A DNA stretch of 64,000 nucleotides from a virus (UHGV-0072281); one strand, 5' to 3'. Counted from the stretch's first letter, positions 32,100 through 51,126 are shown. The notes: generated by a model not told the origin, from the sequence alone. Numbers and translations: made by a program.

Positions 32100-32237
32100 A
32101 ATCTCACCCTTATTAAAATTAAGAAAAAATATTTTTTCAGGTTAGCGCCTACTGCCAACCGTCATATCTATATTTTACGAAATGTCTAAAATAACATTCT
32201 TATGCAATCCACCCCTACCACTTACGAGGTAAAAACG

Positions 32238-32768
32238 ATGGCTAAAGCCTTCAATCAGCAGCTTATCGAAGCTGTAAAAGCCAAAAACCCTGAAACTTCT
32301 TCTAATCTAACCGTAGAAGACGTTGACTTTGGTGCCGTGGAAGCACATAGCGGAAATGGTGGCCGTAACACCAAAGTTACGCTGACTGCAAAAGAAGAAA
32401 GTGCTAACTTTACTGGCAGCAAAGAATTCCACTACACTCGTCTGGCTTCCCAAGACTTGATCGGTGCCAAAGCTTACGAACAAGCTGGTAATCTCGATCT
32501 GGAAAACTCAGCCATCGTAACCAAACTCAACGAAGAAATGGTTACTAAAGGTTATACCGACGACGCGTTTGTCGAAAATGAACTGACAATTGAGAAAACT
32601 GACGGCGATAGCGGTGCTAAAGTTTACACTATCAAAGTAAAAGATGCCCACATCAAATTCTTGACCGGCACCATTGCCACTTTCACTTATACCAACCCAG
32701 CGCCTGAAAAAGTAGCCCTTAGCGGTCTGGAAGGTGAACTTGATGGCTTCACAGCCCCAAAAGACTAA
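32238..32768 (+). CDS. Hypothetical protein, first of three tandem paralogues
   Basis: ATG 32238 with GAGG RBS (track begins 32202); shared core ..NTKVT(L/M)TA...S.NF.G...(L/F).Y.RL....GELDGF(T/K). Confidence 0.6.
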   Translation: MAKAFNQQLIEAVKAKNPETSSNLTVEDVDFGAVEAHSGNGGRNTKVTLTAKEESANFTGSKEFHYTRLASQDLIGAKAYEQAGNLDLENSAIVTKLNEEMVTKGYTDDAFVENELTIEKTDGDSGAKVYTIKVKDAHIKFLTGTIATFTYTNPAPEKVALSGLEGELDGFTAPKD

Positions 32769-32819: not shown

Positions 32820-33359
32820 ATGGATAGTCAAGCTACTAACCAAATGCAGCTAGTCGAGTTATATAACGCTGCCAACACTGGTTTGCCGCACAAATTGGTG
32901 TCGTCTGAAGTAAAATTTGGTCTGCCCTCTGCAAACGACGACGGTGAAAAAAATACCAAAGTTACAATGACCGCTTTACCCGGCTCAGAAAATTTCCGTG
33001 GTCAGATTGAACTTAAGTACGACCGATTAAACCCCTCCATAATTTCTGATTCTCTGGGAGTGGTCAAACTCGAGGGGGAGATAGAAAAATGGCGGGAAGA
33101 TAACTATGTTCGCGCCTATCTGCAACATTATATTAACCAAGTAAAACCCAGAGACACAATAGCCACAGGCGATATTGTTTATAGTTACGAAGAAGTAAAA
33201 GAACAGGATAAACTTGTCGCACTACGAGTTACCTGCACTGTCGCTGAAAGAAACCATAAATATCTGCAAGGCGTAATGCTTGTCTTTGAAGTTAGTCCAG
33301 AAAAGATCGATCTTTCCACCACTAACGGAGAGTTGGACGGCTTTAAACCGACCGAGTAA
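32820..33359 (+). CDS. Hypothetical protein, tandem paralogue
   Basis: 179 aa; strong similarity to 33394 gene (QM.LV.LYNAANTGLPH...KNTKVTMTAL.GSENF.G.IELKYDRL). Confidence 0.65.
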   Translation: MDSQATNQMQLVELYNAANTGLPHKLVSSEVKFGLPSANDDGEKNTKVTMTALPGSENFRGQIELKYDRLNPSIISDSLGVVKLEGEIEKWREDNYVRAYLQHYINQVKPRDTIATGDIVYSYEEVKEQDKLVALRVTCTVAERNHKYLQGVMLVFEVSPEKIDLSTTNGELDGFKPTE

Positions 33360-33393: not shown

Positions 33394-33924
33394 ATGGCAG
33401 CTACTAACCAGATGATGTTGGTCGCGTTGTATAATGCTGCTAATACTGGGCTACCGCATCAGATTACTGATAAAGAAGTGTCCTTTGGTCAACCTGTTGC
33501 GCTGGAAGGCGAAGGTAAAAACACCAAAGTTACCATGACAGCATTGGCGGGTTCCGAAAACTTTAAAGGCTCAATCGAACTGAAATACGATCGACTGGAA
33601 CCGGGTGTTGTAGGGCGTATTGAACTAACTGACGATCTGTCTCGTTGGGTAGAAGAGAACGAACTGCGAGCCTGGTTACAGTATTATATCAACAAAGTAA
33701 AACCTAACGACACGATCGCGCCGGGAGATGTTGTTTATTCTACAGAAGACCAAAAAGACGAGCATGAAAACGTTACTCTGCGAACAGTAACGTGTACCGT
33801 TACCGAAAGAAACCTCCGTTATAAACCAGGTGTAATGGCAACTTTCGTAATTACACCGAAGGTTGTCGATAATCGTATTGACCTGGCCACCACCAACGGT
33901 GAATTGGACGGTTTTACTGCTTAA
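33394..33924 (+). CDS. Hypothetical protein, tandem paralogue
   Basis: 176 aa; see previous. Confidence 0.65.
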   Translation: MAATNQMMLVALYNAANTGLPHQITDKEVSFGQPVALEGEGKNTKVTMTALAGSENFKGSIELKYDRLEPGVVGRIELTDDLSRWVEENELRAWLQYYINKVKPNDTIAPGDVVYSTEDQKDEHENVTLRTVTCTVTERNLRYKPGVMATFVITPKVVDNRIDLATTNGELDGFTA

Positions 33925-33944: not shown

Positions 33945-34000
33945 ACAAAAAAAAACAATAAGTTTACCTACCTCCTTTACGGAGGTAGGTATTTTTTATT
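33945..34000. terminator. Bidirectional rho-independent terminator between convergent operons
   Basis: A9 run, hairpin cctacctcc-tttac-ggaggtagg, T-run. Confidence 0.75.
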
Positions 34001-34670
34001 CTAATCCCATTTCCAGTGCAAGTGCACGGATAGTGTCGTAGTCACGCTGTTCAGCTAAGAGGCGAAGCTCTTTTTTCTGTGCGGTCATTTGTCCATGCAA
34101 CTTCTGATCACGTTTTACGATCTCGGACAATAATTCCTTACACTCTTCTAATGTAAAGGGTTCTAAACGTGTATTGGCGGTATCCAACCAATATTCTGGC
34201 GCAGTTTCAGATTGGATGTATTGCCCTAACATTTGTCGGGAGATTGCATCAGCCTGAAAATGACGTTCATTTAGCTGAATTGGTTCGTAACGTTGTGCTT
34301 CGTAACGCTTCTCCAACGCCATCATGATCTTTTGAACATCTAAATAAATATATCGTGCTGTTGAACGAACGTTACTTCGAATCTCATCCAGATCTATCTC
34401 CAATTTATCTGAAATGAACTCTTTTGCTTTTTTCAAGGTGAAATTTGCTTCAATATCTGACATATTGTAACTACGCATTTGATCTAACGCGTCTTCATCG
34501 GACATGCCGTCGAGTAGTTTGTAATGAAGCAGTGTACAAAAACCCGTTCTGCCGCGATCTTCAGTACCTATATGGCCCAAAAAGTTTCCGTGGCGATCAA
34601 TTGGGGAAAGTCGGCTAAAAAATCTGGCGCGAATATCTTCGTTTATTAAGCTTTTGTCAAGAGCAGGCAT
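33996..34670 (-). CDS. Hypothetical protein, last gene of the radical SAM/peptide locus
   Basis: 224-aa ORF, overlaps upstream gene by 25 nt (translational coupling). Confidence 0.55.
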   Translation of the reverse strand: MPALDKSLINEDIRARFFSRLSPIDRHGNFLGHIGTEDRGRTGFCTLLHYKLLDGMSDEDALDQMRSYNMSDIEANFTLKKAKEFISDKLEIDLDEIRSNVRSTARYIYLDVQKIMMALEKRYEAQRYEPIQLNERHFQADAISRQMLGQYIQSETAPEYWLDTANTRLEPFTLEECKELLSEIVKRDQKLHGQMTAQKKELRLLAEQRDYDTIRALALEMGLE

Positions 34671-35218
34671 TCGTCTTCTCCTTTAATTAAACCCAGCTCG
34701 ATCAGAAGATCAAAATCGATTTTACGAAACTTACTATCAAAATTTGAGTCCCAGTCAATATGTAGTCCTTGACGTTCGTCTTCTGTAAACTCGGGATAAA
34801 CTAAACTATGAAAAGTTTCCCTTTCATCGTAAAAACCATCGATGGTGGACTCTGGGTTTCGTGTGACATAAATTGTTACACCGGGAAACGATAAGCCTAG
34901 GGCGGCTACAGATTCAACACTCGGCTCTTGCAAAGCGCGTCGCAAAAGAACGATTTTATGTTTAGGGAATTCCAGCACGCGCTGTTCAAAACCTGGGTTT
35001 CGTTTCTCGATTTCAGCCACAGAAAGATCGGTAAGTTCTGTACAATACATCGGAATAACAACGGTAACTCCGTGACGAATTAATAATCGCTTAACATCGT
35101 CATTGAAATCTTCGCCGTTAATCTGTACATAACAGCCAAACAGTTTCGTAGTTTCTAAAAACTTTTCCAGAAAACGGAATTTACGCTTCGTAATATTGTG
35201 GATCAGAATTGGCTTCAT
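34646..35218 (-). CDS. Hypothetical protein in radical SAM/peptide locus
   Basis: 190-aa ORF overlapping the SPASM rSAM gene end. Confidence 0.5.
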   Translation of the reverse strand: MKPILIHNITKRKFRFLEKFLETTKLFGCYVQINGEDFNDDVKRLLIRHGVTVVIPMYCTELTDLSVAEIEKRNPGFEQRVLEFPKHKIVLLRRALQEPSVESVAALGLSFPGVTIYVTRNPESTIDGFYDERETFHSLVYPEFTEDERQGLHIDWDSNFDSKFRKIDFDLLIELGLIKGEDECLLLTKA

Positions 35219-36503
35219 CTTTGGCTTCTCTCAATTGTTTTTCTTTCTGGGCGCGTTCACGTACACAGCGAGGACAGTAACACATGCTATTATCGTGAAA
35301 ATCCTTCACGGATGTTGTGCCCATTTTCTGCTTCCAATATTCCGCAACCATCAATTTTGCAGTTGTCCAACCACACTGACGACGTTCAGCGTGATATGCT
35401 TTACGGTCTTCTAACGTCCCTTCCCCATTCTCGTAGGAAGCTGCTGCACAGCTACCACAAGCGTGTTTCATTGGACAACCTAAGCACGTCTCAGGATAGT
35501 TGGTGTATTGCGTCTGAATCTCTTCCAGCAGTTTCCCACCGTCTAAACTAACGAATTCGCGACCGACTAACTCAAATACCGCAGAGCGTGACGTTACAGT
35601 CGACATGAAACGGTTACAACCGAAAATCTTCCTGTCAAACCCTAAACAAGTCATGTGCGTTAATGTCCCGCAGAACGGGCGCAAGCGTTCCGGGTTTAAA
35701 CGTACAGTATCGTTGTAAAGTAGCTGATCACGCCAGTTCGGTTCCCAGATAGTGTCGAAATCTAACCCTTCCGGGATGATATGCGAAAGGGTATTACGTG
35801 GGTTGGTGTGTAAACCCTTTTCAACCCAATAATCGACTACATCCATCATTTGTAGCGCTATCGACGTAGCCATACTCCGTGGCATAATGTCTTCGAAGGT
35901 TACGTTACCAGAAATGGTTCCACCTCCCGCCAAATCGATTAGGGATTTCATACCCGCCGCATAATGTGGGAGTGTCTCCAAAGTAAATGTCGCTTTAACC
36001 CCAAGCTCCGCGATACCTACTTCTTTTAGATAATTGTAACCACGTACAGCGGCCTCGTAGGAACCTTCGCGACTCGTTGTAAAAATACGGTACTTATCGT
36101 GCGACTCAGGTAACCCATCAATAGATACCCCGATAGAAAGTCTGTCCTTCCAACGTTCAATAATTTCCCTGTTCAACGGCCTATCTAATAATGTCCCATT
36201 AGTAGAGATACTAAACATAAACGGACGTTTATGTTCTTCACACAACTGCTCGGCTGTTTCGAAAGCAGTCATTAGAAGCTTAGGCTGCATAAACGGTTCA
36301 CCGCCGATAATGTCAATGATGACTTCTACGTTTGGTAAATCTTTATCGCGTTCAAAGCAGGCATGAAGAAAGTCTACAATATCCGCTGCTTTGTTATTGC
36401 GGGGATATTTACGCTCGTAACAATACTCACAGTCCAAATTACACGACAAGTTTGTAACAATCTGGTAAGTCAACTGTTTCGGGTAATTATTTTCTTGGTT
36501 CAT
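35181..36503 (-). CDS. Radical SAM enzyme with C-terminal SPASM-like Cys-rich domain (putative peptide-modifying maturase)
   Basis: N-terminal CNLDCEYC (C-x3-C-x2-C), IIGGEPF glycine-rich SAM motif, C-terminal Cys clusters incl. CLGCPMKHACGSC. Confidence 0.8.
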   Translation of the reverse strand: MNQENNYPKQLTYQIVTNLSCNLDCEYCYERKYPRNNKAADIVDFLHACFERDKDLPNVEVIIDIIGGEPFMQPKLLMTAFETAEQLCEEHKRPFMFSISTNGTLLDRPLNREIIERWKDRLSIGVSIDGLPESHDKYRIFTTSREGSYEAAVRGYNYLKEVGIAELGVKATFTLETLPHYAAGMKSLIDLAGGGTISGNVTFEDIMPRSMATSIALQMMDVVDYWVEKGLHTNPRNTLSHIIPEGLDFDTIWEPNWRDQLLYNDTVRLNPERLRPFCGTLTHMTCLGFDRKIFGCNRFMSTVTSRSAVFELVGREFVSLDGGKLLEEIQTQYTNYPETCLGCPMKHACGSCAAASYENGEGTLEDRKAYHAERRQCGWTTAKLMVAEYWKQKMGTTSVKDFHDNSMCYCPRCVRERAQKEKQLREAKDEANSDPQYYEA

Positions 36504-37410
36504 TTAATACTCCACTATTACGGTTGGCCATAACCACTCGTCGAATATACTCGTAGGCTTCTAACCCGATGGAACAAGCTAATTGGTTACATCCCGATTC
36601 TAATAATCTCGGGGCATTTTGCAACTGATATTCGGTTCCATCTGCTCTTAACCATAAACTATTGCTGCATACGTTACACCCACCATCAAAAACTTTGCTT
36701 ACGACATAGTCACACCTTTTCGAGTTGGAAACATTCAGTCTTTCTATATTTTCCTGAATTCTAAAATACCCGTAAATAAAGTTCATAACGTGATCGGGAG
36801 ATAACGGTTTTGGCATATTTGCGTCTAACAGCAACGTCATGGTACGATAACCGTAGTGATAGATCGCATTATGAAGCTCAATAATGTCTTCATGCCACCG
36901 TTTGTTACCCAACTGTTCTCGAGTTAAAACGGCCCATGTATGAACATTTTCAAGCTCATGCATTACTTCTAAAGCTTCGTAGCAATCATCGCTAATAAAA
37001 CGCTTAAAAGGGCGTTCAGACAACTCAAACCCGTCGATGCTAACATATACGTTATCAAATTGTTTTAACAACGGTAGATGCGTTTTACGCATCTTTAAGC
37101 CATTGGTGTATAACTGATGTTTGAGTTCTGGGCGAACTGCTTTTAACTCGTCAACAAACGCCTCAATTTTACGAGTGGCTAACAAAGGCTCACCACCCGT
37201 CCATTGAATCTCGGTAATTGTTGGGTTAGCTTCTAACGCCTCCATAATTCGGTCACGTTGAAACTCTCGAGAAGAATCTTCACGATTCATGTAATAGGCT
37301 CCGCCGCAGAAACTACAGTCCAGATTACATTTGGATGTAGTAATAACGGCTAATATAGTTGGATTATCAAATAGCTGATCTGATAATTTTGGTTCCGCAT
37401 TGGTCGCCAT
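36487..37410 (-). CDS. Radical SAM enzyme (paralogue B)
   Basis: VITTSKCNLDCSFCGG (C-x3-C-x2-C), WTGGEPLL; C-terminal Cys residues; paralogue of 39018-39929 with blocks of perfect nucleotide identity. Confidence 0.8.
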   Translation of the reverse strand: MATNAEPKLSDQLFDNPTILAVITTSKCNLDCSFCGGAYYMNREDSSREFQRDRIMEALEANPTITEIQWTGGEPLLATRKIEAFVDELKAVRPELKHQLYTNGLKMRKTHLPLLKQFDNVYVSIDGFELSERPFKRFISDDCYEALEVMHELENVHTWAVLTREQLGNKRWHEDIIELHNAIYHYGYRTMTLLLDANMPKPLSPDHVMNFIYGYFRIQENIERLNVSNSKRCDYVVSKVFDGGCNVCSNSLWLRADGTEYQLQNAPRLLESGCNQLACSIGLEAYEYIRRVVMANRNSGVLNEPRK

Positions 37411-37432
37411 TGCAGGTGACTCCGTTAATTAT

Positions 37433-38320
37433 TTAATTATAGTCGATAGCGAACAATGGATCTTCGTCGAAATTGACTCCAGGTTTTAAAACCTTAGTCG
37501 AATTATACGCCTCTAGCAACCGATTAAGATCGTTATAACGACTATTCATTCTTTTGAGGTCTTCTAAGGTCACAATACGATCAAGCATCGGCTTAACGGC
37601 CTCGGCTTCTTCATCAGTCAATTCAACCTTAGACAACAAAAAACTAACAAGTTTAGAAATATCAGCCTCGGTTACTGGACTTTGGCCAAATCGTATTTGA
37701 ACAAGATGTTGCATCCATGGTTTACGAATACGCTTCGTAATAACATGCTCATCAGTAATGGCTTTCCAAACAGAACGTTCACGAATCCATTCGAACTTAT
37801 AGCTATAGGCCATTAAATCAGCTAAATGTGCAATCCCGAGGTCCTGATAACCTTCAATGTTGGTGTATGGTTCACTGTCGGAATACTCTTCAACATCCTT
37901 ACCAACAAGAGTATAGTAATACGGAAAAGCCCCCATGTAATCTGGACTCCACCATCTCCGAACCATAGGCTTAGCGTCAAGCTCAGCAAACGGTGTAAAA
38001 AAAAGTTCTAAATCGCTACCAGCATTTAGAACTCCGTCACTGAAGAAGTATTTACCATCAACAATCATTCCATAAAGTTCATCATCTCCTGTAAAAACTA
38101 TCACACGTTCGACCGGCAGATCACGAATTGTAAAAGTATTTTCTACAGAGATATTATCACGGTTGACGATATCACGACCCCGTAATTTCGGCCATTCGCC
38201 AGGTAGCATGGTAATTAAACGAACGTCGTCACTTAAATGATAACGTACAGAATCTGGAGAAGAGATTTGCAAAGGATGGTTAAATGTAGTGTTATATGCT
38301 AAATGTAAATCGTTTTTCAT
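37433..38320 (-). CDS. Hypothetical protein between precursors and radical SAM gene
   Basis: 295-aa ORF; no recognisable motif. Confidence 0.55.
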   Translation of the reverse strand: MKNDLHLAYNTTFNHPLQISSPDSVRYHLSDDVRLITMLPGEWPKLRGRDIVNRDNISVENTFTIRDLPVERVIVFTGDDELYGMIVDGKYFFSDGVLNAGSDLELFFTPFAELDAKPMVRRWWSPDYMGAFPYYYTLVGKDVEEYSDSEPYTNIEGYQDLGIAHLADLMAYSYKFEWIRERSVWKAITDEHVITKRIRKPWMQHLVQIRFGQSPVTEADISKLVSFLLSKVELTDEEAEAVKPMLDRIVTLEDLKRMNSRYNDLNRLLEAYNSTKVLKPGVNFDEDPLFAIDYN

Positions 38321-38343
38321 TGAATACCTCTGACACGTTTCTA

Positions 38344-38553
38344 CTACTTATTACCGCCAGCACCACGGCTACAACTACCGCTACAGGACCAGCTACACCC
38401 ACCGTTACAGTTATAGTGACTCAACGGTAAACCAGAAAGGTTATTAGTGGACGACACCGTACCCTGGTTTGCAATATAGTTGTTTGCTCCTGCTGTGGTA
38501 ATGTATCCTTCCGCCGTTACTAATCTGTCGCGTATGTTTTTAAGACTTATCAT
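38344..38553 (-). CDS. Cys-rich precursor-like peptide A (leader + short CxxxC core)
   Basis: 69 aa: leader MISLKNIRDRL...HYN then core CNGGCSWSCSGSCS; conserved leader and junction shared with B and C. Confidence 0.65.
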   Translation of the reverse strand: MISLKNIRDRLVTAEGYITTAGANNYIANQGTVSSTNNLSGLPLSHYNCNGGCSWSCSGSCSRGAGGNK

Positions 38554-38556
38554 TTC

Positions 38557-38955
38557 TCATCTTCCCGTACACGATTGCGAACAGCCACCATGACAGGTAC
38601 GACTACATGTACCTGTACATGTAGTCGTACATTGACCTATACATGTCCCCGTGCACCCACCAGAACATGAACTAGTACAACCTGAACATCCAGAACTACA
38701 ACCAGAAACACAGTTTGCTGAACATGAGGAACCACAACCTCCAGAAGCATTACCGGTACAACCACCAGAACAACTGGAGCACGTCCAGCTACAGCTACCA
38801 CCACAGTCGTAATGATTTTTAGGTTGCCCGCCAAATAGGTCGACATTATTCGTAGCCTTTCCACGAATATAGTTCTGTACTGCTCCAGTGTTTTTTAGCG
38901 CGGAAGAATCTATATTATCCAAGCGCGCTTTTAAAGAAGATAAACCAATCGCCAT
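38557..38955 (-). CDS. Cys-rich precursor-like peptide B (leader + long CxxxC-periodic core)
   Basis: 132 aa: ~50-aa leader then ~80-aa core with about 20 Cys at regular 4-residue spacing in G/S/T background, beginning DCGGSCSWTCS. Confidence 0.7.
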   Translation of the reverse strand: MAIGLSSLKARLDNIDSSALKNTGAVQNYIRGKATNNVDLFGGQPKNHYDCGGSCSWTCSSCSGGCTGNASGGCGSSCSANCVSGCSSGCSGCTSSCSGGCTGTCIGQCTTTCTGTCSRTCHGGCSQSCTGR

Positions 38956-39017
38956 TTTAACACCTACTGGTTCAGTGCCAGCTAAGGCACATTATAATTC
39001 ATTCTCTGTAAAAAATA

Positions 39018-39929
39018 TCACAATTTTGCCGGAATCCTATTCTTAGCCCCTACTACTCGTCGTATATAATCGTAAGCATCTAAGCCAACCTTTCTGGCTA
39101 AGTCACTACAGCCATGTTGCGTTACGATTTCAACGTTTTTTACTTGATTCTGGACACCGTCAGACTCGATACGTAAACAACGACTACATGTATTACAGGG
39201 TTCATCAAATAACGCGTTTAGCGTAAACGCGCACTCGCTTCGATTGGACGAATTCAGTCTTTCTATATTTTCCTGAATTCTAAAATACCCGTAAATAAAG
39301 TTCATAACGTGATCGGGAGATAACGGTTTTGGCATGTTTTTGTCCAAAACTAGCGACATCTCGCAAAAACCGTAATGGTAGATGTGATTATGTAGCGCAA
39401 TTATATCCTCATACCAGCGTTTATCACCGATACGTTCTCGTGTCAAGACTGCCCAGGTACGAATATTTTTCAATTCGTAAATTGTCTCCAACACCTCGTA
39501 TTGTTTTTCTTCGATAATCCGCATAAATGGACGCTCTGATTCTTTGAATCCGTCCATGCTAAAAAAGATGCTATCGAAACCCTTTAACAACGGTAGATGC
39601 GTTTTACGCATCTTTAAGCCATTGGTGTACAGGTAATGATCACAGCGAGGATACTTCTCCCTTATCTCTTCTATAAGGGCATCAATTTTACGCGAAGCGA
39701 GTAATGGTTCACCTCCCGACCACTGAATATTTGTGATGGTCGGGTTATTTTCCAGCGCCTCGATAATACTTTTCTTTTGTACTTCTGCGGTTGTATCCTC
39801 TCTATGCATGTAATAGGCTCCGCCGCAGAAACTACAGTCCAGATTACATTTGGATGTAGTAATAACATTTAACGTTCTTGGTTCAGAATACAATTGATCG
39901 GATACTGTCGGTGTGGTTAACTCTATCAT
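39018..39929 (-). CDS. Radical SAM enzyme (paralogue C)
   Basis: VITTSKCNLDCSFCGG, WSGGEPLL; immediately downstream of precursor C. Confidence 0.8.
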   Translation of the reverse strand: MIELTTPTVSDQLYSEPRTLNVITTSKCNLDCSFCGGAYYMHREDTTAEVQKKSIIEALENNPTITNIQWSGGEPLLASRKIDALIEEIREKYPRCDHYLYTNGLKMRKTHLPLLKGFDSIFFSMDGFKESERPFMRIIEEKQYEVLETIYELKNIRTWAVLTRERIGDKRWYEDIIALHNHIYHYGFCEMSLVLDKNMPKPLSPDHVMNFIYGYFRIQENIERLNSSNRSECAFTLNALFDEPCNTCSRCLRIESDGVQNQVKNVEIVTQHGCSDLARKVGLDAYDYIRRVVGAKNRIPAKL

Positions 39930-39953
39930 CAGTAATAGTACCTATCTGTTAAA

Positions 39954-40346
39954 TTAAGTCGGTCCTGAACAAGACGCACATGCGCCACTACATCCCGAGC
40001 TACAACGCCCGGAGCATCTACCACTGCATGTAGCGCTGCAACCAGTGCACCCACCAGAACACGTAGCGCTGCAACCAGTGCATTGATTACCGCAGGCGGA
40101 TGAACAGCTTCCAACACACACTGAGGTGCACGTACCAGAACAACTTGTACAACCATGCGTACAACCGTTCGAGCACGTCCAGCTACAGCTACCACCACAG
40201 TCTAATCGACCCGGTGTCCAGCCTGAAAAAGAATCTGCGGCATTGTGAGCTTTTGATGCAACCTGTGGATCGACGCGGGGTCCTGTCGCCATTTGATTCT
40301 CTACGTTGGTGATTCGATCGCGAACGTTTTTAACACTAATCGCCAT
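39954..40346 (-). CDS. Cys-rich precursor-like peptide C (leader + long CxxxC-periodic core)
   Basis: 130 aa: leader MAISVKNVRDRI...GRLD then core CGGSCSWTCS... with about 21 Cys; AAGGA RBS. Confidence 0.7.
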   Translation of the reverse strand: MAISVKNVRDRITNVENQMATGPRVDPQVASKAHNAADSFSGWTPGRLDCGGSCSWTCSNGCTHGCTSCSGTCTSVCVGSCSSACGNQCTGCSATCSGGCTGCSATCSGRCSGRCSSGCSGACASCSGPT

Positions 40347-40358
40347 TCCGTATCCTTA

Positions 40359-40400
40359 AAATAAAAAAAGAGGAGGACTACGCCCATAAGCATAGTTCCT
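40359..40400 (-). terminator. Rho-independent terminator (minus strand) after gene 40413-41618
   Basis: On minus strand: hairpin aggaggaact...agtcctcct followed by TTTTTTTATTTT. Confidence 0.6.
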
Positions 40401-40412: not shown

Positions 40413-41618
40413 TTATTTCGTACCCGCTTCCGCCTGTACGTCATCACGAGACGTCAAGTTAGCGTTAACGTGTACTGGGGCCTGAACCACACCACCGTAT
40501 TTCTTGTGGAGATAACCGGTATGTGGGTTATCTGCCGCAATGTGGTTTTGTAGGTTCTGGTTCGCCTGACTGATTGCGTTCGTGTTGTTAGCAACTTGCT
40601 TTTTGAGCGCATCCAGGTTCTGTTGTAACTGATCGATTTTCTGATCGGTTTCTTGACCCTGTTGCTCTAACGCGTCAACACGCTGAATAACCTGATTCAG
40701 TTTCGTGTTCAAATCGTTAATGCTCTTTTGCAGCTGTAACACTAACGAGTTCAGGTTCGCTAACGCTAAAGCCATTTTCTGGTAGTTTTGAGCAACCACG
40801 TTAAGTTGGTCGTTCCACGCTTCCAGAGAGTTGACAACAGCGTCAATACGCTTACCTAAAGCTTCATCTGCTTTCTTCAGTGCATTGATTTCCGTAATCG
40901 TTGCGTCGATAGCAGACTGGACGTCACGAATAAGCGCACGGATTTCAGTTTCTGTTAACCCGTTAACCTGATGAATATCAAGATGGTGAACGTTACCGGT
41001 TGCGTTAATGTGTGCATTTAAAGCGTCTAAGAAGTCATTTTTCAGGCTTTCTAAAATCGCTTTAATGTTCTCTAACTGTACCGCGTCACCAGAACTGATC
41101 GCATCTTTAATACCCGCCAATACGGTAATGATATATTCAAAACCGTAAATATCACCTACGTCTTTATACGTCGGTGCAGAAGGGAATGTATCTGGTACGT
41201 TACGCAGGTCTTTAAACGCAACCGTACGGTTATCGAGGTTTAATTCAGCAATCGCCTGTTCGATAGCCACGATGTTCGCAGACTGTGGGCCACCAACGAC
41301 CTGCGCAGATACCGTAATATCTGTTGGAATCGCTGTGTTAGTGACCACCACCGCCATAACAATCTCGCGGTTTTTAGTCAGCTTTTCATAAGTCGGGTGT
41401 GCAAAAATCAACTCATAATCGGTACCACGTTCGTAGGTTGCATCCGGTCGGTTAGCAACGCGTAAACGGAACGTGTCCGCAAAGAACGGGCCGTCAGGAA
41501 AAGCAAAAGCACGGTTTACTTTACCTGTACCTAACGTAATCTGACGCTCCACAGCGTTAGACGTTAGCGAGCCCGTTAAATCTAAAGGATATTGATAAAC
41601 AATGGAGGCCATGGCCAC
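40413..41618 (-). CDS. Fibre-like structural protein with N-terminal shared anchor module and coiled coil
   Basis: 401 aa; N-terminal block (FPDGPFFADTFRLRV...GTDYEL) shared with the three giant proteins upstream; long heptad-like segment; C-terminal NPH motif. Confidence 0.6.
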   Translation of the reverse strand: MAMASIVYQYPLDLTGSLTSNAVERQITLGTGKVNRAFAFPDGPFFADTFRLRVANRPDATYERGTDYELIFAHPTYEKLTKNREIVMAVVVTNTAIPTDITVSAQVVGGPQSANIVAIEQAIAELNLDNRTVAFKDLRNVPDTFPSAPTYKDVGDIYGFEYIITVLAGIKDAISSGDAVQLENIKAILESLKNDFLDALNAHINATGNVHHLDIHQVNGLTETEIRALIRDVQSAIDATITEINALKKADEALGKRIDAVVNSLEAWNDQLNVVAQNYQKMALALANLNSLVLQLQKSINDLNTKLNQVIQRVDALEQQGQETDQKIDQLQQNLDALKKQVANNTNAISQANQNLQNHIAADNPHTGYLHKKYGGVVQAPVHVNANLTSRDDVQAEAGTK

Positions 41619-41652
41619 TCTCCTTTATTCGAGACGTCCTTGTCCCGAGTCA

Positions 41653-44600
41653 TTAAGATGTAAACATAAGATTGAACTGGAGTTTGTCGATATCGCGAGT
41701 TTCTGCTGGATTCACGCCGTCGTACGCGGTCGCTACGTAAACCGTTAGCGTACCGTCAGCGTACGAGGATATTACCGGTGGGTTAGTTCCGGTCTGACCA
41801 TCTCGCACAATGAGTGCAGGCTCGCTGGGAAGATTATCAAACTGCCCTTTAACCGCTTTGTATACCAAACCGGACTGTGCAGATAACTCCGTGTCTGTGT
41901 ACACACAGAACGGTGTATCGATGTCAGCTTGTTTGATAGTGGTACCGGATTCGACATCAACCAACTGTACTGCTCCAAACTTCGTGCGATAACTTTCATA
42001 TTCGTTCTTCGGAATAACAAAAGTAACGTGAACACGAACTTCTTCAGCGGGCTTAAAGCCAGTATGTTCTTTTTCCAAATACTGGTTGGCTGATAGTGTC
42101 ACTTTTTGTTCGGCCATCGAACCACCTGCCTGATTTATTCCGTACCGGGCTTCAACAATACCGGTTGGTGCAGCAAGTCGCAATTTCAGAGTCCGATTCG
42201 CCGTTCCTGGATTACCTGGCACTTGAACGCGCAAACTCAATGCTAAGTAAGCATACGTTCCGGTAGTCGGTTTCGTATACGCACCTATCCATTTCATGTT
42301 CGCAGACGCTGCCTGCGTGTTCTCAGAAGCAATGGCTGTCGTAATGTTAGCAGCTACCGCTTTCTGCCAGAATTGGTCGGCGCAGTTCTCATACGCTACT
42401 CTGGCCACGCTCTTATAACCCGAATACGTTTCCTGAATTGGTAACTTAGGACGCGTCGTGATGCCAGACAATGAACCCCATTTTTGACCGTCAACATACC
42501 CTTCGCCCTTCGACGCAGCCGCCGTAGGTGCTTTAACGGGCTTGTTAACCAGGGTTAATAGAGGACCCGTCTTTCTGTCAAACGCTGCTGCTACATCGTG
42601 TTGGTCGATAATTGCTGCGTGGTCTTCCAGCTCTTTCACACGACCCAAGCGTTTTACTTTGTCGATACTGATATCAGTAATACGGCTGGAATCGGTGGTT
42701 ACTGTCCCGACGAACAGTCTCGTTGAAGTATCGGCTAACTGCTCCAAACCGATGCGGTATTGTGCGGTAGAATCCGACACCTCAGCGTGCACGTAGAACG
42801 TCTGGTTAGCGTGATTGGACGGGAACTCGCTGCTTAAATCCACAGACCACGTTGGGAGTGTGTAGCTGCTGCTACCGAAGTCTAATTTGACTTCTTCTGT
42901 CAAATACAGAATCCAACCTTCCGCTGTCTCCACACCAGCAATAATAACCGCCTGACCACCGGTTGAGAACGTCGTGTCGTTAACGAACTCTGCGGCTGTA
43001 TACGCGTTACCTGAACAGAAAACACGGTCAGCTTTAGAGAAAATCAACGCCATCTTGTCCCAATTACCGGCACCCATATAGCATCCAGATTCTGGGTTAT
43101 GCGCAGGAGCCATCTGACGTAACTGCGACTTACCAGGAACGCGAGACCAACCTGAACCTGGGTCGTAGGTATACTTCGCGGCGTAACCTAGTGCGTTTAA
43201 GTCCCCGATATTTCGGATAGTTAACGTATAAGGTAGCCAGATACCGAAGTTAGTTCCATCCGCAGAAGCGAAAATAGGCTGTCCGACGCGACGGGTCTTA
43301 TTACCAGCCTCCTCTCTTAACGACTGATAACTTAAACCGTAGTCTTTATCCAGGAACCAATCCACCAACTTAAAGTTAGCGGAGTTGAACCGTAAGTAAC
43401 CATTCTCTTTAGATGGACTCACCATGAAGTAATAGATGTCAAGAATTCGACGACCGTTACTTAAGGTTTTCATGCACGAAACTTGCAACAAGTCAAATTC
43501 GCACACGGTGTTGATACCCAACATCCAAAGAGCAAACAATGCATTACCGGTTTGATGGGCAGCACTAATACGTTCGTTCGCGTATCCGTTCGCTTGGCCA
43601 GAAGGTGCACCGTCAACGATCATCCGAATCATTTTCTGTCGATCGGCTTCTTCTAGCGTTAAGCGTTCGGAAGACAACGCGAAGTTACCGTAGATGTTAC
43701 GATACGGGAACGTTTCTGCTTTGGTCAAATACCAACCGTTTAACTGTCCGTGACGCTCCTCAGGAGTCATGCACGCAGCCATACAGCTAAGCTGCTCATA
43801 TAGCGTTGGATCGACTTCACGACGGTTGTTGTTCGGACCGTATCCGCTATAACCCGGAACATCGTAAGGTTTGTTCGGATCAACTTCTACTTCGATGGTG
43901 TAACGGTTACGTGGGTTAGACATCCACACTTTGTTCGAACCACCAATCCCAACAGGATGGGAAAGACCAATGGTATAAATAGAACCACGACCTTTATCCC
44001 AGGTAAACGTTCCTTCGCCTGAGGTATTGTTTGGGTTATCGTAACGCAGATAATCGAAAAATTCTTTGCCTTGTGTTCCTTTAATAGAAACGTTAGGCAT
44101 TTGGTCCGCGTCGTTAATCTGCCAGCAGGAAAGCATCATTCCTGTTCCATTAGGCTTAGCGTACGTTGCAAAACAACGATTGTTTGCTTGACCACCGCCC
44201 CACTTACGGCTGGTTTCTACAGTTGAACCATCCGCGAAAGAGAGTGTAGTAGCATCAGCCTTGATGGGAAAGCGTTCGCGGCCTTCTAACGTAACCTTGC
44301 CCGTCGACGTATCGATTGTAAAACTTGTTGCCCACTGACGAAAGTTAATTTGTGAGCTGTCAGCCGCTGCAAACCACACAGTAGGCATATGGTTCACACG
44401 AATCACGCCGTCGCGCACTGCACAAGCATGGTTACATTCTGGACCGTGAACAAAGTTGCAACCAATTGTCCATTTAGCCCGTGCTTCCGGCGTCAAATAC
44501 GTAAAGAACTGACCCGTTTGTGACTCTTCGGTTTTCTGGCCAATGCGTAGGCAGAGGTTATCTCCGAATTGTCCCATCTCCCCGTTTAGTGTTACGCGTT

Positions 44601-46836
44601 CAAACTCCAGCGTGGTGCTAGTAGACAAATCGTCCTTACGTAGACGCCAAGCTGCTACTGCGTAAGCAGAGTTATTTACCGTAGAGCGGAGAAGATAAAC
44701 GTAATCCTCAACCAACACAACATCATCGGCTTCTGGCCACGGATTCCAGGTTTGTTCCACAGTACCGCTGGGGTTGCCGTTACGGTACACGGGCATCGTA
44801 ACGCGACATACCACCGTGTGTTTAGTGTGATCCATCGAACCATTAAACAACACCAAATAACGGTTATTATCAGAACCCAGACAAATAATCGCTTCCTGAC
44901 CACCGATCAATATAGCTTTCAGGGTCACTCCAGGATATTTACTCATCCCGGCAGGGTGATATTTCACTGAGGTCTGCTGCGGATTTACAAACGCGTTTGA
45001 CGTGTTAATGTCAGCATAGCCGTAATAAATGGCTTCTGTACCCGGTACGCCGTTAGAACCGTTACGGAGCGAATAAACCTTACCCTGCTGATACCCAACA
45101 ACCCCTTTTTGATAAGACTGGTTTTTGGTATAACCCGAATAGTTACCTAGCGCTGGGATAGGTAAGAAGTTCTTGTTACCGAACTTCGCACCACCTACCG
45201 TCCACGCCGGTAAGATGGTATTCAGTTTATCAGAGACTTTCTTAATCTCTTTTGCGAACAGCCACCCTTGACGCGACGTGACAGCTTTATCGTTAGTAGT
45301 GTCAATCGCATCCCAGAGCTGCAAGATACCGTCAACCGATGCACTACCAATTGGAATGTTATCCAAGTCAGCAGTGGTGTGTGTATGCGTCTTCAAACTC
45401 TTGTTTTTCAACACGTTCGTTAACGCTTTCGTCACCGGCTTAGCACTTGGCGTGGTGTTATCCATCTTATCGGTACCGAAATCGGTTTTCGTTAAGGTTA
45501 ACACCATACTGTCGCCTACCTTAACAAACCCTTTACCGTTAACGGTATAGTCATCGTCAACGTACAGGTCCAAGCGGTCTTTTAATTCGGTTACGGCTTT
45601 CTGGGAGATAGCAGTACCTAACGCCGCAGACGTGGAGATATTCGTAATCGAGAACAACCCATAAACTGATTCGGTCGCTGTGGGAATATTCGCGTTTAAC
45701 GTAACCGGGTTAGTCTGTTTTGCGGTACCGTACGGTTTTACAGTGTCTGACGCTTTGAAATACGCGTTTGCTTCGAGCAACGTTACTGACGTCAGGTACA
45801 TGTTCACCATTTCTGGCGTAACCAGATACACGGAGTTATAAACCGGCGCTAATACATCCTGTTCTGACCCCGAGTGAACCCAAAGCGTATTCAGACCCGC
45901 ACTGAATTCAACCGCTAAACCTGATTCGTTGTTGTCCTGGTCTGCTTTAATCACCAACGGTTGTGGCGAGGTAATTAACCACTTATCACCGCGAATACTG
46001 ATGATGTGGCCACCTGACGTTTTAAACGTTAATTCAATACCGTTAGTAGTGCCCCATCGACCGTAAACAGTACCGAGGGCTTCACCCATTAACTGGTCAA
46101 CGTCTGATTGCTCAATACCCGCTGAACCCATCAGCGTAGCCAACTCGTCAATCGTCAACCCAAACGCTTTTGTAGCGTCAACAGCGCGGCCTAATACCGG
46201 GAGAGCAGCAATGTCGTCAGTGGTATAATGATGAGCGTTAGGATTCCGGTGGTGTTGGTATAACTCTTCGTCGAAAACCTTTTTACCGTTCTCGTAAATC
46301 AGGTTAGTAACTTCACTAAACGCAGCATCTAACTCTGTAGAACGCTTAATGATTTTCTTACGAATGTCTTCTAACGCCTTAACAACCTCATCTCTCAGAA
46401 TAGCTTCTTCTAAGTTAGCAGGCGGGTCGATTGGTTGAATAACCGGCGCATACGCCATTAGTTCAGACCAGTCCACGTTACGTGGGTCTTTCAGGTCAGT
46501 ACGAACTAAGAACTTCCCGATTTCAGATTGCGGTACACGATATTGACGTGCTACCCCTAAAATCTCATATTCGATTTCTGTTGCAGTAAGCAACATAAAC
46601 CCGCCGTAAATCTGATCTTGTTCAGCTTCTGCGAGTTCTTTAAAGTAATAGCCTAAATAGTAGTCCAACCCCTCAATCAGAGTACGACGTCCGTTAGGCG
46701 CGGTATCGTCGGCTACTGTGAGTTTTAATCCGATACGATAAAAAGGTCCTTCAGGTGGAATGACCACGTTAAATCGGTTAGGGTACGTTGCTGTGCTTAG
46801 CGTACCGTTAAACTGCGCCGCGTCTTCTCTCGGCAT
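41653..46836 (-). CDS. Giant tail fibre / tail spike-like structural protein
   Basis: 1727 aa; N-terminal block PPEGPFYRIGLKL...GLDYYL homologous to neighbours; AGGAG RBS. Confidence 0.65.
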   Translation of the reverse strand: MPREDAAQFNGTLSTATYPNRFNVVIPPEGPFYRIGLKLTVADDTAPNGRRTLIEGLDYYLGYYFKELAEAEQDQIYGGFMLLTATEIEYEILGVARQYRVPQSEIGKFLVRTDLKDPRNVDWSELMAYAPVIQPIDPPANLEEAILRDEVVKALEDIRKKIIKRSTELDAAFSEVTNLIYENGKKVFDEELYQHHRNPNAHHYTTDDIAALPVLGRAVDATKAFGLTIDELATLMGSAGIEQSDVDQLMGEALGTVYGRWGTTNGIELTFKTSGGHIISIRGDKWLITSPQPLVIKADQDNNESGLAVEFSAGLNTLWVHSGSEQDVLAPVYNSVYLVTPEMVNMYLTSVTLLEANAYFKASDTVKPYGTAKQTNPVTLNANIPTATESVYGLFSITNISTSAALGTAISQKAVTELKDRLDLYVDDDYTVNGKGFVKVGDSMVLTLTKTDFGTDKMDNTTPSAKPVTKALTNVLKNKSLKTHTHTTADLDNIPIGSASVDGILQLWDAIDTTNDKAVTSRQGWLFAKEIKKVSDKLNTILPAWTVGGAKFGNKNFLPIPALGNYSGYTKNQSYQKGVVGYQQGKVYSLRNGSNGVPGTEAIYYGYADINTSNAFVNPQQTSVKYHPAGMSKYPGVTLKAILIGGQEAIICLGSDNNRYLVLFNGSMDHTKHTVVCRVTMPVYRNGNPSGTVEQTWNPWPEADDVVLVEDYVYLLRSTVNNSAYAVAAWRLRKDDLSTSTTLEFERVTLNGEMGQFGDNLCLRIGQKTEESQTGQFFTYLTPEARAKWTIGCNFVHGPECNHACAVRDGVIRVNHMPTVWFAAADSSQINFRQWATSFTIDTSTGKVTLEGRERFPIKADATTLSFADGSTVETSRKWGGGQANNRCFATYAKPNGTGMMLSCWQINDADQMPNVSIKGTQGKEFFDYLRYDNPNNTSGEGTFTWDKGRGSIYTIGLSHPVGIGGSNKVWMSNPRNRYTIEVEVDPNKPYDVPGYSGYGPNNNRREVDPTLYEQLSCMAACMTPEERHGQLNGWYLTKAETFPYRNIYGNFALSSERLTLEEADRQKMIRMIVDGAPSGQANGYANERISAAHQTGNALFALWMLGINTVCEFDLLQVSCMKTLSNGRRILDIYYFMVSPSKENGYLRFNSANFKLVDWFLDKDYGLSYQSLREEAGNKTRRVGQPIFASADGTNFGIWLPYTLTIRNIGDLNALGYAAKYTYDPGSGWSRVPGKSQLRQMAPAHNPESGCYMGAGNWDKMALIFSKADRVFCSGNAYTAAEFVNDTTFSTGGQAVIIAGVETAEGWILYLTEEVKLDFGSSSYTLPTWSVDLSSEFPSNHANQTFYVHAEVSDSTAQYRIGLEQLADTSTRLFVGTVTTDSSRITDISIDKVKRLGRVKELEDHAAIIDQHDVAAAFDRKTGPLLTLVNKPVKAPTAAASKGEGYVDGQKWGSLSGITTRPKLPIQETYSGYKSVARVAYENCADQFWQKAVAANITTAIASENTQAASANMKWIGAYTKPTTGTYAYLALSLRVQVPGNPGTANRTLKLRLAAPTGIVEARYGINQAGGSMAEQKVTLSANQYLEKEHTGFKPAEEVRVHVTFVIPKNEYESYRTKFGAVQLVDVESGTTIKQADIDTPFCVYTDTELSAQSGLVYKAVKGQFDNLPSEPALIVRDGQTGTNPPVISSYADGTLTVYVATAYDGVNPAETRDIDKLQFNLMFTS

Positions 46837-46931
46837 CGTAAAGACTCCTACTTTTTAAATAAAATGGATACCCCTCCCCATTACAGGGAGGGGTTACCTA
46901 CGGACACACAACTGCCCGCAGGCAGCCTGTC

Positions 46932-51116: not shown

Positions 51117-51126
51117 AAAATTCTCC

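What the first reader, a model, noticed from the sequence alone, without database searches (positions are those of the whole stretch)
33996..40400. Phage-encoded radical SAM / Cys-rich peptide locus (putative RiPP-type modification system) inside the tail structural operon
Seen in sequence: on the minus strand, directly downstream of four fibre-like structural genes, lie precursor-like peptide C (39954-40346), radical SAM C (39018-39929), precursor-like peptides B and A (38557-38955, 38344-38553), an unknown 295-aa protein, radical SAM B (36487-37410), a SPASM-type radical SAM (35181-36503) and two more unknowns, ending at a bidirectional terminator. All three enzymes carry C-x3-C-x2-C and a GGEP-type motif. 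Established knowledge: a leader-core peptide next to a radical SAM (often SPASM) maturase is the hallmark of RiPP pathways such as sactipeptides, ranthipeptides and SCIFF. Inference: the phage makes heavily cross-linked Cys-rich peptides; co-transcription with fibre genes suggests a virion-associated or host-envelope-directed role rather than a classical bacteriocin. I do not recall a described phage locus with this architecture.
Basis: partly seen in the sequence, partly recalled or inferred. Interest (0 to 1): 0.95.

Follow-up and report, generated by a model that had tools for sequence, protein, structure and literature searches.

The report
Radical-SAM cysteine-repeat phage tail-fibre module
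A giant phage carries, right after its tail-fibre genes, three small proteins with a cysteine at every fourth residue plus three radical SAM enzymes. In other phages the same cysteine repeat is fused to the end of the tail fibre itself, so this is probably an undescribed enzymatic modification of a virion fibre part, not an antibiotic-like peptide pathway.

Summary
The ORFs are real and sit where the finding says. All three enzymes are radical SAM proteins. The 440-aa one has the seven-Cys SPASM signature. Its best matches are the CXXX-repeat maturase family (TIGR04115), PapB and CteB, all below the family cut-offs. The three Cys-rich ORFs are genuine genes: 84% of substitutions between related phages fall on third codon positions.

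The window is a new SPN3US-like jumbo phage. The whole cassette is conserved across that clade, but the Cys-rich genes are unannotated or annotated in the wrong frame in GenBank.

Relatives of the SPASM enzyme sit in tail modules of P2-like, lambda-like and T7-like prophages. There the same C-(S/T)-G-x repeat, often with the same junction motif, is the C-terminus of tail-fibre or fibre-like proteins. It is followed by a homologue of the 295-aa unknown protein and the same two enzyme types. Among 83 related loci, 78 have a Cys-repeat ORF nearby.

Best reading: RiPP-like enzymes modify, probably cross-link, a cysteine-repeat module belonging to tail fibres. The chemistry and virion location are inferred, not shown. 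I found no RRE, protease or exporter, so a classical diffusible RiPP is unlikely. I found no published description.

The parts
39954..40346 (-). pepC-type Cys-repeat protein (130 aa). It has an N-terminal ~49-aa module with a predicted helix at residues 5-18, then the junction DCGGSCSWTC, then 21 Cys spaced mostly C-x3-C.
   Evidence: It belongs to PHROG 6085 at E 2e-40. Codon-position test. It is conserved in every SPN3US-like locus. The AF2 monomer model is low confidence, pLDDT 41.
39018..39929 (-). Short radical SAM enzyme 'C' (303 aa), a 63%-identical paralogue of rSAM-B. This extra copy is specific to the lineage of this phage.
   Evidence: Pfam Radical_SAM. Pairwise 63% identity to rSAM-B. 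Among the fetched jumbo-phage loci it is present only in the window and its 95%-identical IMG/VR relative L020; it is absent from L011, SPN3US and the others.
38557..38955 (-). pepB-type Cys-repeat protein (132 aa), with junction NNVDLFGGQPKNHYDCGGSCSWTC and 20 Cys.
   Evidence: Weak sub-threshold hits to TIGR04114/TIGR04117 CXXX-repeat target models, E 0.005. The junction is shared with fibre-like proteins of other phages.
38344..38553 (-). pepA-type short paralogue (69 aa), with the same N-terminal module and junction but only 4 Cys.
   Evidence: It is a conserved 68-72-aa gene directly upstream of the 295-aa gene in all jumbo-clade loci. In Derbicusvirus-type phages only the C-x-G-S-C-S-W junction is kept.
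37433..38320 (-). 295-aa accessory protein of unknown fold; a conserved partner of the cassette.
36487..37410 (-). Short radical SAM enzyme 'B' (307 aa), with CxxxCxxC, GGEPL and conserved C-terminal Cys (C245, C248, C274), suggesting one auxiliary cluster.
   Evidence: Full-length homology to the short rSAM of the Campylobacter prophage. It is present in the jumbo and prophage clades.
35181..36503 (-). SPASM-type radical SAM enzyme (440 aa).
   Evidence: Pfam Radical_SAM. Best NCBIfam hits are TIGR04115 at 120 bits (cut-off 350) and PapB at 113 bits (cut-off 340). The closest solved structure by sequence is CteB, 5WGG. Seven C-terminal Cys are invariant.
34646..35218 (-). 190-aa protein of unknown function; its gene overlaps the SPASM gene by 38 nt.
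   Evidence: PHROG 7988. Found only in the jumbo clade. Overlaps.
33996..34670 (-). 224-aa DUF4376 protein, the last gene of the block.
   Evidence: Pfam DUF4376 at 29.2 bits, above its cut-off of 25. PHROG 8169, plus a weak tail-fibre PHROG hit. Found only in the jumbo clade.
33965..33991 (.). Hairpin between convergent gene blocks; a likely bidirectional terminator.
40413..55452 (-). Context: four upstream fibre or baseplate-periphery structural genes (401, 1727, 1394 and 1441 aa), homologues of SPN3US gp167-170.
   Evidence: SPN3US virion mass spectrometry. gp168 is a tail protein similar to phiKZ gp131.

Best explanation
This is a tail-fibre accessory cassette. Three small paralogous proteins (types A, B and C) each consist of a short N-terminal module, a conserved junction (N-x-x-[DN]-x-[FL]-x-G ... 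Y/L-x-C-x-G-x-C-S-W) and a fixed-length C-(S/T)-G-x repeat.

Shown:
- They are co-encoded with tail-fibre genes.
- They sit next to one SPASM radical SAM enzyme, one or two short radical SAM enzymes, and a 295-aa partner protein.

Inferred:
- The enzymes act on the Cys-repeat module in the reducing cytoplasm.
- The most likely product is sulfur-to-carbon (thioether) cross-links, by analogy with the nearest characterised relatives PapB, CteB and QhpD. This would turn an otherwise unstructured Cys/Ser/Gly/Thr stretch into a rigid, redox-insensitive, protease-resistant element.
- The modified proteins join the fibre or baseplate apparatus as a distal component. Elsewhere the same module is the C-terminal end of a homotrimeric fibre; here three separate genes might form a small heterotrimeric fibre. 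This last point is speculative.
- The 295-aa protein sits where P2-like phages place the fibre-assembly chaperone (established gene order, recalled from memory). It may present the substrate to the enzymes in place of an RRE.
For: 1. Enzyme placement. Radical_SAM for all three. The 440-aa enzyme aligns over residues 10-370 with TIGR04115 and scores next best with PapB; it scores far higher there than with anSME, QueE, NrdG or MoaA models. The closest PDB sequence is the thioether-forming CteB. The seven SPASM Cys are invariant.

2. Enzyme-substrate linkage. 78 of 83 loci holding a relative of the SPASM enzyme have a Cys-repeat ORF. In the 76 loci where distance was measured, it is always on the same strand and within 3 kb, at a median of 834 bp.

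3. Fibre linkage.
- In a Campylobacter pinnipediorum P2-like prophage the repeat is the C-terminus of a bona fide tail fibre (PF12571; PHROG tail-fibre families at E 1e-55). It is followed by a 250-aa protein, a SPASM rSAM and a short rSAM, all lying between the baseplate and sheath genes.
- In lambda-like prophages (Deferribacter abyssi L008, and L092) a fibre-like protein after the GpJ-type gene ends ...LGGQ..YYRCS.CSWTC + repeat, followed by the same partners.
- L025 is a repeat fused to a protein resembling the long-tail-fibre distal subunit.
- L091 is a 76-aa repeat ORF directly after a T7-tail-fibre-like gene.
- True TIGR04115 members (386-497 bits) sit after baseplate-wedge and tail-fibre genes.

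4. Conserved partners. The 295-aa protein and the short rSAM have homologues in the prophage cassettes.

5. Selection. Strong purifying selection on the core, and 20 invariant Cys columns at fixed length across phages of Salmonella, Erwinia and Cronobacter.

6. Structure. The unmodified monomer has no confident fold, which is compatible with a need for modification or oligomerisation.
Against: - There is no biochemical or proteomic evidence for any modification, or for the proteins being in virions.
- SPN3US virion mass spectrometry lists gp160 and gp167-171 but not gp161-166. This is uninformative for the Cys-repeat proteins, because none was correctly annotated in the reference. It does fit non-structural roles for the enzymes and the 295-aa protein.
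- The window's enzymes fall well below every curated family cut-off, so the chemistry cannot be transferred with confidence.
- The core contains no Asp or Glu, the acceptor residues used by PapB and QhpD.
- The window's small proteins share only the junction and repeat with real fibre proteins. No other window protein shares their N-terminal module, so how they attach to the virion is unknown.
- Many of the 83 loci are near-duplicates, so the co-occurrence rests on roughly 30 distinct lineages, not 83.
Confidence: 0.55

Rival explanations
1. Classical diffusible RiPP. The N-terminal ~49 aa is a leader that is cleaved off, and the cross-linked Cys-rich core is released at lysis as a bacteriocin-like or signalling peptide.
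For: The architecture of small Cys-rich ORFs next to rSAM/SPASM enzymes matches that of RiPP clusters. The best family matches are RiPP maturases. Prokka even labelled one orthologue AlbA.
Against: No RRE, leader peptidase or exporter is found in the locus. The core is more conserved than the N-terminus, the reverse of the usual RiPP pattern (established knowledge). The same repeat is covalently part of tail-fibre proteins in other phages. The cassette lies in tail modules in every clade examined.
Confidence: 0.08
2. The Cys repeat is a metal-binding or disulfide-forming structural module, comparable to iron-binding fibre tips or to the CX3C domains of minicollagen. On this reading it needs no radical chemistry, and the rSAM enzymes act on another target such as the large fibre proteins or a host envelope component.
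For: Cys-rich repeats commonly bind metals or form disulfide networks. There is a weak compositional resemblance to the NOWA CX3C domains (E 0.44, not significant). No modification has been shown.
Against: The near-obligate linkage between the enzyme and the Cys repeat holds across very different phages whose other tail proteins are unrelated. NCBI's curated naming of TIGR04115 as targeting CXXX repeats rests on the same association. Disulfides cannot form during cytoplasmic assembly (established knowledge).
Confidence: 0.15
3. The modified Cys-repeat proteins act only inside the infected cell and are absent from the finished virion. Possible roles are a transient assembly scaffold or chaperone for the giant fibres, a redox or sulfur buffer, or an anti-defence factor.
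For: None of gp161-166 is in the SPN3US virion list. In jumbo phages the proteins are separate small genes rather than fusions.
Against: The mass-spectrometry database lacked the correct ORFs. Where the repeat is fused, it is part of the structural fibre gene itself, which is hard to reconcile with a purely intracellular role unless it is cleaved off.
Confidence: 0.15
4. The published reading: the radical SAM genes are auxiliary metabolic genes that enhance host metabolism during infection.
For: This is stated for SPN3US-like phages in PMC6614189, citing Lee et al. 2011.
Against: The family placement is with peptide maturases, not metabolic rSAM enzymes. The genes are embedded in the late structural tail block and tightly linked to Cys-repeat genes.
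Confidence: 0.03

Closest known systems
CXXX-repeat radical SAM maturase system (NCBIfam TIGR04115 enzyme with TIGR04114/TIGR04117 Cys-rich repeat targets)
   Same: A SPASM rSAM sits next to proteins with Cys at every fourth residue. It is the best-scoring family for the 440-aa enzyme, with an alignment covering nearly the whole model. True members in viral contigs also lie after baseplate and tail-fibre genes.
   Different: The window enzyme scores 120 bits against a cut-off of 350, and pepB scores 17 bits against 20. The window clade adds a second (here also a third) short rSAM, a 250-295-aa partner protein and, in most members, a CSW-type junction, all of which TIGR04115-type loci lack. To my knowledge, and in the searched library, the family is defined only bioinformatically: no chemistry and no link to phage tails has been described.
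PapB / freyrasin (ranthipeptide; Cys-Asp thioethers in repeated C-x3-D motifs)
   Same: It is the second-best family hit at 113 bits. Both have a SPASM enzyme without an N-terminal extension, and a substrate with a repeated four-residue Cys register.
   Different: The score is below the cut-off of 340. The window cores have no Asp or Glu acceptors. The PapA precursor is a short secreted-type RiPP precursor, not a fibre-linked protein.
CteB / SCIFF (Cys-to-Thr thioether) and QhpD / QhpC
   Same: CteB is the closest solved structure by sequence, and Thr and Ser are abundant after each Cys. QhpD sets a precedent for a SPASM enzyme cross-linking a protein subunit for structural purposes rather than making a natural product (established knowledge).
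   Different: Both score far below their family cut-offs: SCIFF 55 bits against 425, QhpD 57 bits against 453. CteB has an N-terminal RRE, which is absent here.
Covalent or metal-based stabilisation of phage structural proteins (HK97 capsid isopeptide chainmail; His-coordinated iron in the T4 gp37 fibre tip)
   Same: The functional idea is the same: extra bonds that rigidify virion parts assembled in the cytoplasm.
   Different: The chemistry and proteins are entirely different. No dedicated radical enzyme is involved in those cases (established knowledge).

Membership tests
TIGR04115 CXXX-repeat rSAM maturase | HMM score at or above the curated cut-off (350 bits) | tested here: not met
   120.2 bits for the 440-aa enzyme. 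Viral-contig enzymes L032, L045 and L048 reach 386-497 bits.
TIGR04115 CXXX-repeat rSAM maturase | CxxxCxxC radical SAM core plus a SPASM auxiliary-cluster Cys set | tested here: met
   C21/C25/C28 and seven invariant C-terminal Cys: C278, C296, C340, C343, C349, C352, C377. The Pfam SPASM model itself is not hit.
TIGR04115 CXXX-repeat rSAM maturase | A neighbouring protein with CXXX repeats | tested here: met
   pepB and pepC: 16 of their 19-20 Cys-Cys gaps are 3 residues. However, the TIGR04114 score is 17.0 bits against a cut-off of 20.
PapB-family ranthipeptide maturase (NF047865) | HMM score at or above 340 bits; Cys-Asp/Glu acceptor motif in the substrate | tested here: not met
   112.9 bits. 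There is no Asp or Glu in the cores.
SCIFF maturase (TIGR03974) / sactipeptide maturases | HMM cut-off; N-terminal RRE domain | tested here: not met
   55 bits against 425. The CxxxCxxC motif begins at residue 21, leaving no room for an RRE.
RiPP biosynthetic cluster (general) | A leader peptide that is removed; a dedicated protease and/or exporter; a conserved leader with a variable core | tested here: not met
   No protease or transporter family is found in any of the nine proteins. The core is more conserved than the N-terminus. Leader removal itself cannot be tested here.
RiPP biosynthetic cluster (general) | Post-translational modification of the peptide by the neighbouring enzyme | not testable with these tools
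   Needs mass spectrometry. Only co-occurrence supports it.
Phage tail-fibre component | Encoded in the tail or fibre gene block | tested here: met
   The cassette lies directly downstream of the gp167-170 homologues on the same strand, with gaps of at most 66 nt. The same position is seen in P2-like, lambda-like and T7-like contexts.
Phage tail-fibre component | Sequence homology to recognised tail-fibre proteins | tested here: inconclusive
   Only the junction and repeat are shared with fibre or fibre-like proteins (L008, L009, L024, L025, L027, L092). The N-terminal module has no match outside its own family.
Phage tail-fibre component | Physical presence in the virion | not testable with these tools
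   The SPN3US virion proteome did not include the correct ORFs in its search database.
   The short enzymes score at most 39 (QueE), 35 (NrdG) and 47 bits (MoaA), against cut-offs of 126-284. The SPASM enzyme scores 56 bits against anSME, cut-off 349.

The most novel reading that the evidence does not exclude
A widespread, undescribed class of virion post-translational modification. Radical SAM enzymes install covalent cross-links, probably thioethers, in a Cys-every-fourth-residue module at the distal end of phage tail fibres. The module is fused to the fibre in P2-, lambda- and T7-like phages and split into three small proteins in SPN3US-like jumbo phages. If so, the bioinformatically defined 'CXXX-repeat RiPP' family would really be a phage tail-fibre maturation system.
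Probability: 0.4. Interest if true: 0.9.

Novelty: new variant of a known kind. Interest (0 to 1): 0.8.

Why it matters
If the inference holds, phages use radical SAM chemistry to harden or functionalise part of their host-recognition apparatus. That kind of virion modification was not described in the literature I could search.

- It would give the orphan CXXX-repeat rSAM family a biological role.
- It would explain the long-puzzling radical SAM genes of SPN3US-like phages, so far attributed to host metabolism.
- It would add three unannotated genes to a well-used model phage.
- It would matter for engineering the stability and host range of therapeutic jumbo phages.
- It would offer enzymologists a repetitive, protein-embedded substrate with two cooperating enzyme types.

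The hypothesis can be tested directly in SPN3US, which has genetics and established virion proteomics.

Tried and rejected
- Megablast of the locus against GenBank phages found no match. Homology appears only at the protein level, at 81-84% identity to Seoulvirus.
- The Campylobacter CP220-type and Vibrio nt-1-type phage rSAM genes match only the core domain (23-33% identity over 29-41% of the query) and are not the same system.
- AF2 of pepC gave pLDDT 41, so no usable fold.
- A profile of the Cys-repeat proteins against PDB sequences gave only non-significant NOWA hits.
- An HMM of the N-terminal module against all window ORFs found no other carrier.
- I considered that the short rSAM is specific to the C-x-x-C-S-W junction. 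I rejected this as a strict rule, because the Campylobacter prophage and L029 have the short enzyme without a Trp junction.
- Open-frame counting cannot identify the coding frame, since the +1 and -1 frames are also nearly stop-free. The codon-position test did.
- Ten literature searches found no paper on CXXX-repeat maturases or on rSAM enzymes linked to tail fibres. The Haft & Basu 2011 paper was not available.
- Sigma-70 promoter scanning is at background level (28 sites found, 25.5 expected). It is not informative for a phiKZ-like phage anyway.

Full report
**1. What is there**

- pepC (39954-40346, 130 aa)
- rSAM-C (39018-39929, 303 aa)
- pepB (38557-38955, 132 aa)
- pepA (38344-38553, 69 aa)
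- a 295-aa protein (37433-38320)
- rSAM-B (36487-37410, 307 aa)
- a 440-aa rSAM (35181-36503)
- a 190-aa protein (34646-35218)
- a 224-aa protein (33996-34670)

Gaps between genes range from -38 to +66 nt, and most genes have a Shine-Dalgarno-like sequence upstream. The block ends at an 11-bp-stem hairpin (33965-33991) that faces a convergent gene block.

Upstream on the same strand are four large structural genes: 40413-41618, 41653-46836, 46932-51116 and 51127-55452.

**2. The Cys-rich ORFs are real genes**

pepB and pepC have 20 and 21 Cys within about 81 residues. Sixteen of their 19-20 Cys-Cys gaps are exactly three residues, and the consensus unit is C-(S/T)-G-x. In the whole 64-kb window only these ORFs match a Cys-repeat pattern.

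Counting stop codons cannot identify the coding frame, because the +1 (Val-rich) and -1 frames of the repeat are also almost free of stops. The substitution pattern does identify it. Between related phages, differences in the core fall 87/65/786 on codon positions 1/2/3 of the Cys frame; for example 0/0/20 for L014 versus L015. The Cys frame is therefore translated and under strong purifying selection, stronger than on the N-terminal ~49 residues (156/120/459).

An alignment of 23 pepB/pepC-type proteins has 20 invariant Cys columns and a nearly constant length.

**3. The enzymes**

All three hit Pfam Radical_SAM and Fer4_12.

The 440-aa enzyme:
- Its best NCBIfam match is TIGR04115, 'radical SAM peptide maturase, CXXX-repeat target family' (120 bits, residues 10-370 against model positions 3-344 of 359).
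- The next matches are PapB (113 bits), then the geopeptide, HxsB, SCIFF, QhpD and anSME models. All are far below their cut-offs.
- The Pfam SPASM model is not hit. However, seven C-terminal Cys (C278, C296, C340, C343, C349, C352, C377) are invariant across 20 relatives down to 30% identity.
- The closest solved structure by sequence is the SCIFF thioether synthase CteB, 5WGG.
- CxxxCxxC begins at residue 21, so there is no N-terminal RRE domain.

The two short enzymes:
- They are 63% identical paralogues.
- They keep CxxxCxxC, GGEPL and three C-terminal Cys (C245, C248, C274), suggesting one auxiliary cluster.
- They score only 35-53 bits against any family, including MoaA, QueE and NrdG.

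**4. Where the window comes from, and how the locus is annotated elsewhere**

No GenBank phage matches at the nucleotide level. At the protein level the window is an SPN3US-like jumbo phage. The SPASM enzyme is 81-84% identical to the Seoulvirus enzymes and 60-73% identical to those of Erwinia and Cronobacter relatives. An IMG/VR contig (UViG_3300045988_078609, L020) is about 95% identical in DNA.

All nine gene families are present in every locus of this clade. The extra rSAM-C is the exception: it occurs only in the window and L020.

In SPN3US the enzymes are gp163 and gp164. The annotated 'gp166' is the wrong (Val-rich) frame of the pepB-type gene, and the pepC- and pepA-type genes are not annotated. 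Several Erwinia and Cronobacter phage records carry opposite-strand calls over the repeat.

SPN3US virion mass spectrometry lists gp158, gp160 and gp167-171 but not gp161-166 (PMC5694885 supplement). gp168 is a tail protein resembling phiKZ gp131 (PMC5105663). Because the three Cys-repeat proteins were not in the reference annotation, their absence from the list says nothing about them.

The only published statement I found on these rSAM genes is that they are 'involved in enhancing host metabolism' (PMC6614189).

**5. The decisive comparative evidence**

A search of 5.8 billion proteins found relatives of the SPASM enzyme at 30-40% identity over about 88% of its length in bacterial assemblies. 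Their contexts are prophage tail modules.

- *Campylobacter pinnipediorum*, P2-like prophage (L009). The gene order is gp25-like protein, baseplate J, tail protein I, tail fibre, a 250-aa protein, SPASM rSAM, short rSAM, DUF1353, sheath, tube. The tail fibre (PF12571; PHROG tail-fibre families at E 1e-55) ends in GCNGCSGSCSGSCSSGCTACSGCSGSCSG....
- *Deferribacter abyssi*, lambda-like prophage (L008). After the GpJ-type gene comes a 302-aa fibre-like protein ending KATNADQLGGQAGSYYRCSDCSWTCSSSC, plus about 25 more repeat Cys. It is followed by a 250-aa protein, a short rSAM and a SPASM rSAM.
- The junction in L008 is the same as in pepB (KATNNVDLFGGQPKNHYDCGGSCSWTCSS).
- L092, lambda-like, has the same kind of fibre plus two short rSAMs and one SPASM rSAM.
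- L091 has a 76-aa repeat ORF directly after a T7-tail-fibre-like gene.
- L024, L025 and L027 are further fusions. L025's N-terminal part resembles long-tail-fibre distal subunits.
- L029 has a minimal 97-aa substrate with the same partner genes.

The 295-aa protein's C-terminal half is homologous to the 250-267-aa proteins in these cassettes (E 3e-10 pairwise). The short rSAMs align over their full length.

**6. The wider family**

A scan of IMG/VR with the enzyme alignment confirmed 368 relatives, of which the best 80 were fetched. Including three bacterial loci, 78 of 83 loci have a Cys-repeat ORF. In the 76 loci where distance could be measured, the nearest such ORF is always on the same strand and within 3 kb, at a median of 834 bp.

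Many loci are near-duplicates, so this amounts to roughly 30 lineages. Three groups emerge:
1. Jumbo phages with all nine genes.
2. Prophage-type cassettes with the repeat fused to fibre or fibre-like proteins, plus the 250-aa protein and two enzyme types.
3. True TIGR04115 members (386-497 bits) with a single enzyme and repeat proteins of 48-574 aa.

In the loci of group 3 that I checked, the cassette follows baseplate-wedge, baseplate and tail-fibre genes.

**7. Interpretation**

Shown:
- The genes, motifs, family placements, conservation and enzyme-repeat linkage.
- The fusion of the repeat to tail-fibre proteins and the tail-module context.

Inferred:
- The enzymes modify the repeat.
- The modification is a set of thioether-type cross-links, by analogy with PapB, CteB and QhpD.
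- The products are part of the fibre apparatus.

One rationale from established knowledge is that virions assemble in the reducing cytoplasm. Disulfides cannot form there, whereas radical SAM thioether formation can.

The high conservation of the core across phages of unrelated hosts argues that it is a generic structural or physicochemical element, not the host-specific receptor-binding determinant.

Jumbo phages always carry exactly three paralogues with a predicted N-terminal helix, which suggests a heterotrimeric mini-fibre. This is speculation.

The roles of the 295-aa, 190-aa and DUF4376 proteins remain open. The 295-aa protein has a confident AF2 model (pLDDT 86.7) with no structural relatives. 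In the P2-like prophage its homologue sits immediately after the tail-fibre gene. From memory, that is where P2-like phages place the fibre-assembly chaperone.

**8. Rivals**

- A diffusible RiPP is unlikely. There is no RRE, protease or exporter, the core is conserved while the N-terminus is less so, and the repeat is fused to structural proteins elsewhere.
- A metal-binding or disulfide module with the enzymes acting on another target cannot be excluded, but it does not explain the near-obligate linkage.
- An intracellular-only role remains possible until virion data exist.
- The 'host metabolism' reading has no support from family placement or gene context.

**9. Novelty and verdict**

Pairing a SPASM rSAM with CXXX-repeat proteins is a catalogued kind of system (NCBIfam). 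The window's enzymes are not members by score. The features below are not described in any paper I could find:
- the two-enzyme plus partner-protein cassette
- the junction motif
- above all, the tail-fibre association

I file this as a new variant of a known kind. Interest is high because it turns an orphan enzyme family and a set of unannotated phage genes into a directly testable hypothesis about virion modification.

Noticed in passing
window 32202-32768, 32820-33359, 33394-33924 (+): Three tandem paralogues (188, 179 and 176 aa; Pfam DUF7941), all ending in an (N/E)GELDGF motif. They are homologues of SPN3US gp160, an abundant virion protein. Copy number differs between relatives: one in SPN3US, about four in SPAsTU. 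Parts of them are divergence hot-spots relative to L020.
   Followed up: partly
window 30342-31016 (+); L009 8068-8433: A DUF1353 protein lies near the cassette in the window. A DUF1353 gene also directly follows the short rSAM in the Campylobacter prophage. RefSeq names the SPN3US homologue 'tail assembly chaperone'.
   Followed up: no
SPN3US JN641803/NC_027402 143191-144220; Phobos, Huxley and CR5 loci (L004, L005, L007): Database annotation errors. SPN3US gp166 is the Val-rich +1 frame of the pepB-type gene. The pepC- and pepA-type genes are missing from the annotation. Several Erwinia and Cronobacter phage records carry opposite-strand hypothetical genes over the repeat.
   Followed up: yes
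window 40000-40249: The pepC core is a patch of about 13% nucleotide divergence from the otherwise ~95%-identical IMG/VR relative L020. Yet 27 of the 29 core differences are at third codon positions, which suggests recombination with another lineage under tight protein constraint.
   Followed up: partly
L092 5306-8134; L024 4065-8110: Other tail-module cassettes also carry more than two rSAM genes. L092 has two short rSAMs plus one SPASM rSAM, like the window. L024 has an extra 472-aa rSAM-motif ORF and an apparently split short rSAM.
   Followed up: no
L029 5883-9074 (IMG/VR contig of 279 kb): A minimal version of the cassette in another very large viral contig. A 97-aa protein ends in only GCESCAMGCHGPQ and is followed by a 267-aa homologue of the 295-aa protein, a SPASM rSAM and a short rSAM.
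   Followed up: partly
window 29644-30234 (+) and 30994-31509 (+): A GH108 + PG_binding_3 endolysin. Next to it is a 171-aa protein whose Phobos counterpart is annotated as peptidase M15A.
   Followed up: no
A4 profile against PDB (2hm6, 2hm3, 2hm4): A non-significant (E about 0.5) compositional resemblance of the repeat to the CX3C cysteine-rich domains of Hydra NOWA/minicollagen. From memory, those domains cross-link a structural wall through disulfides.
   Followed up: no
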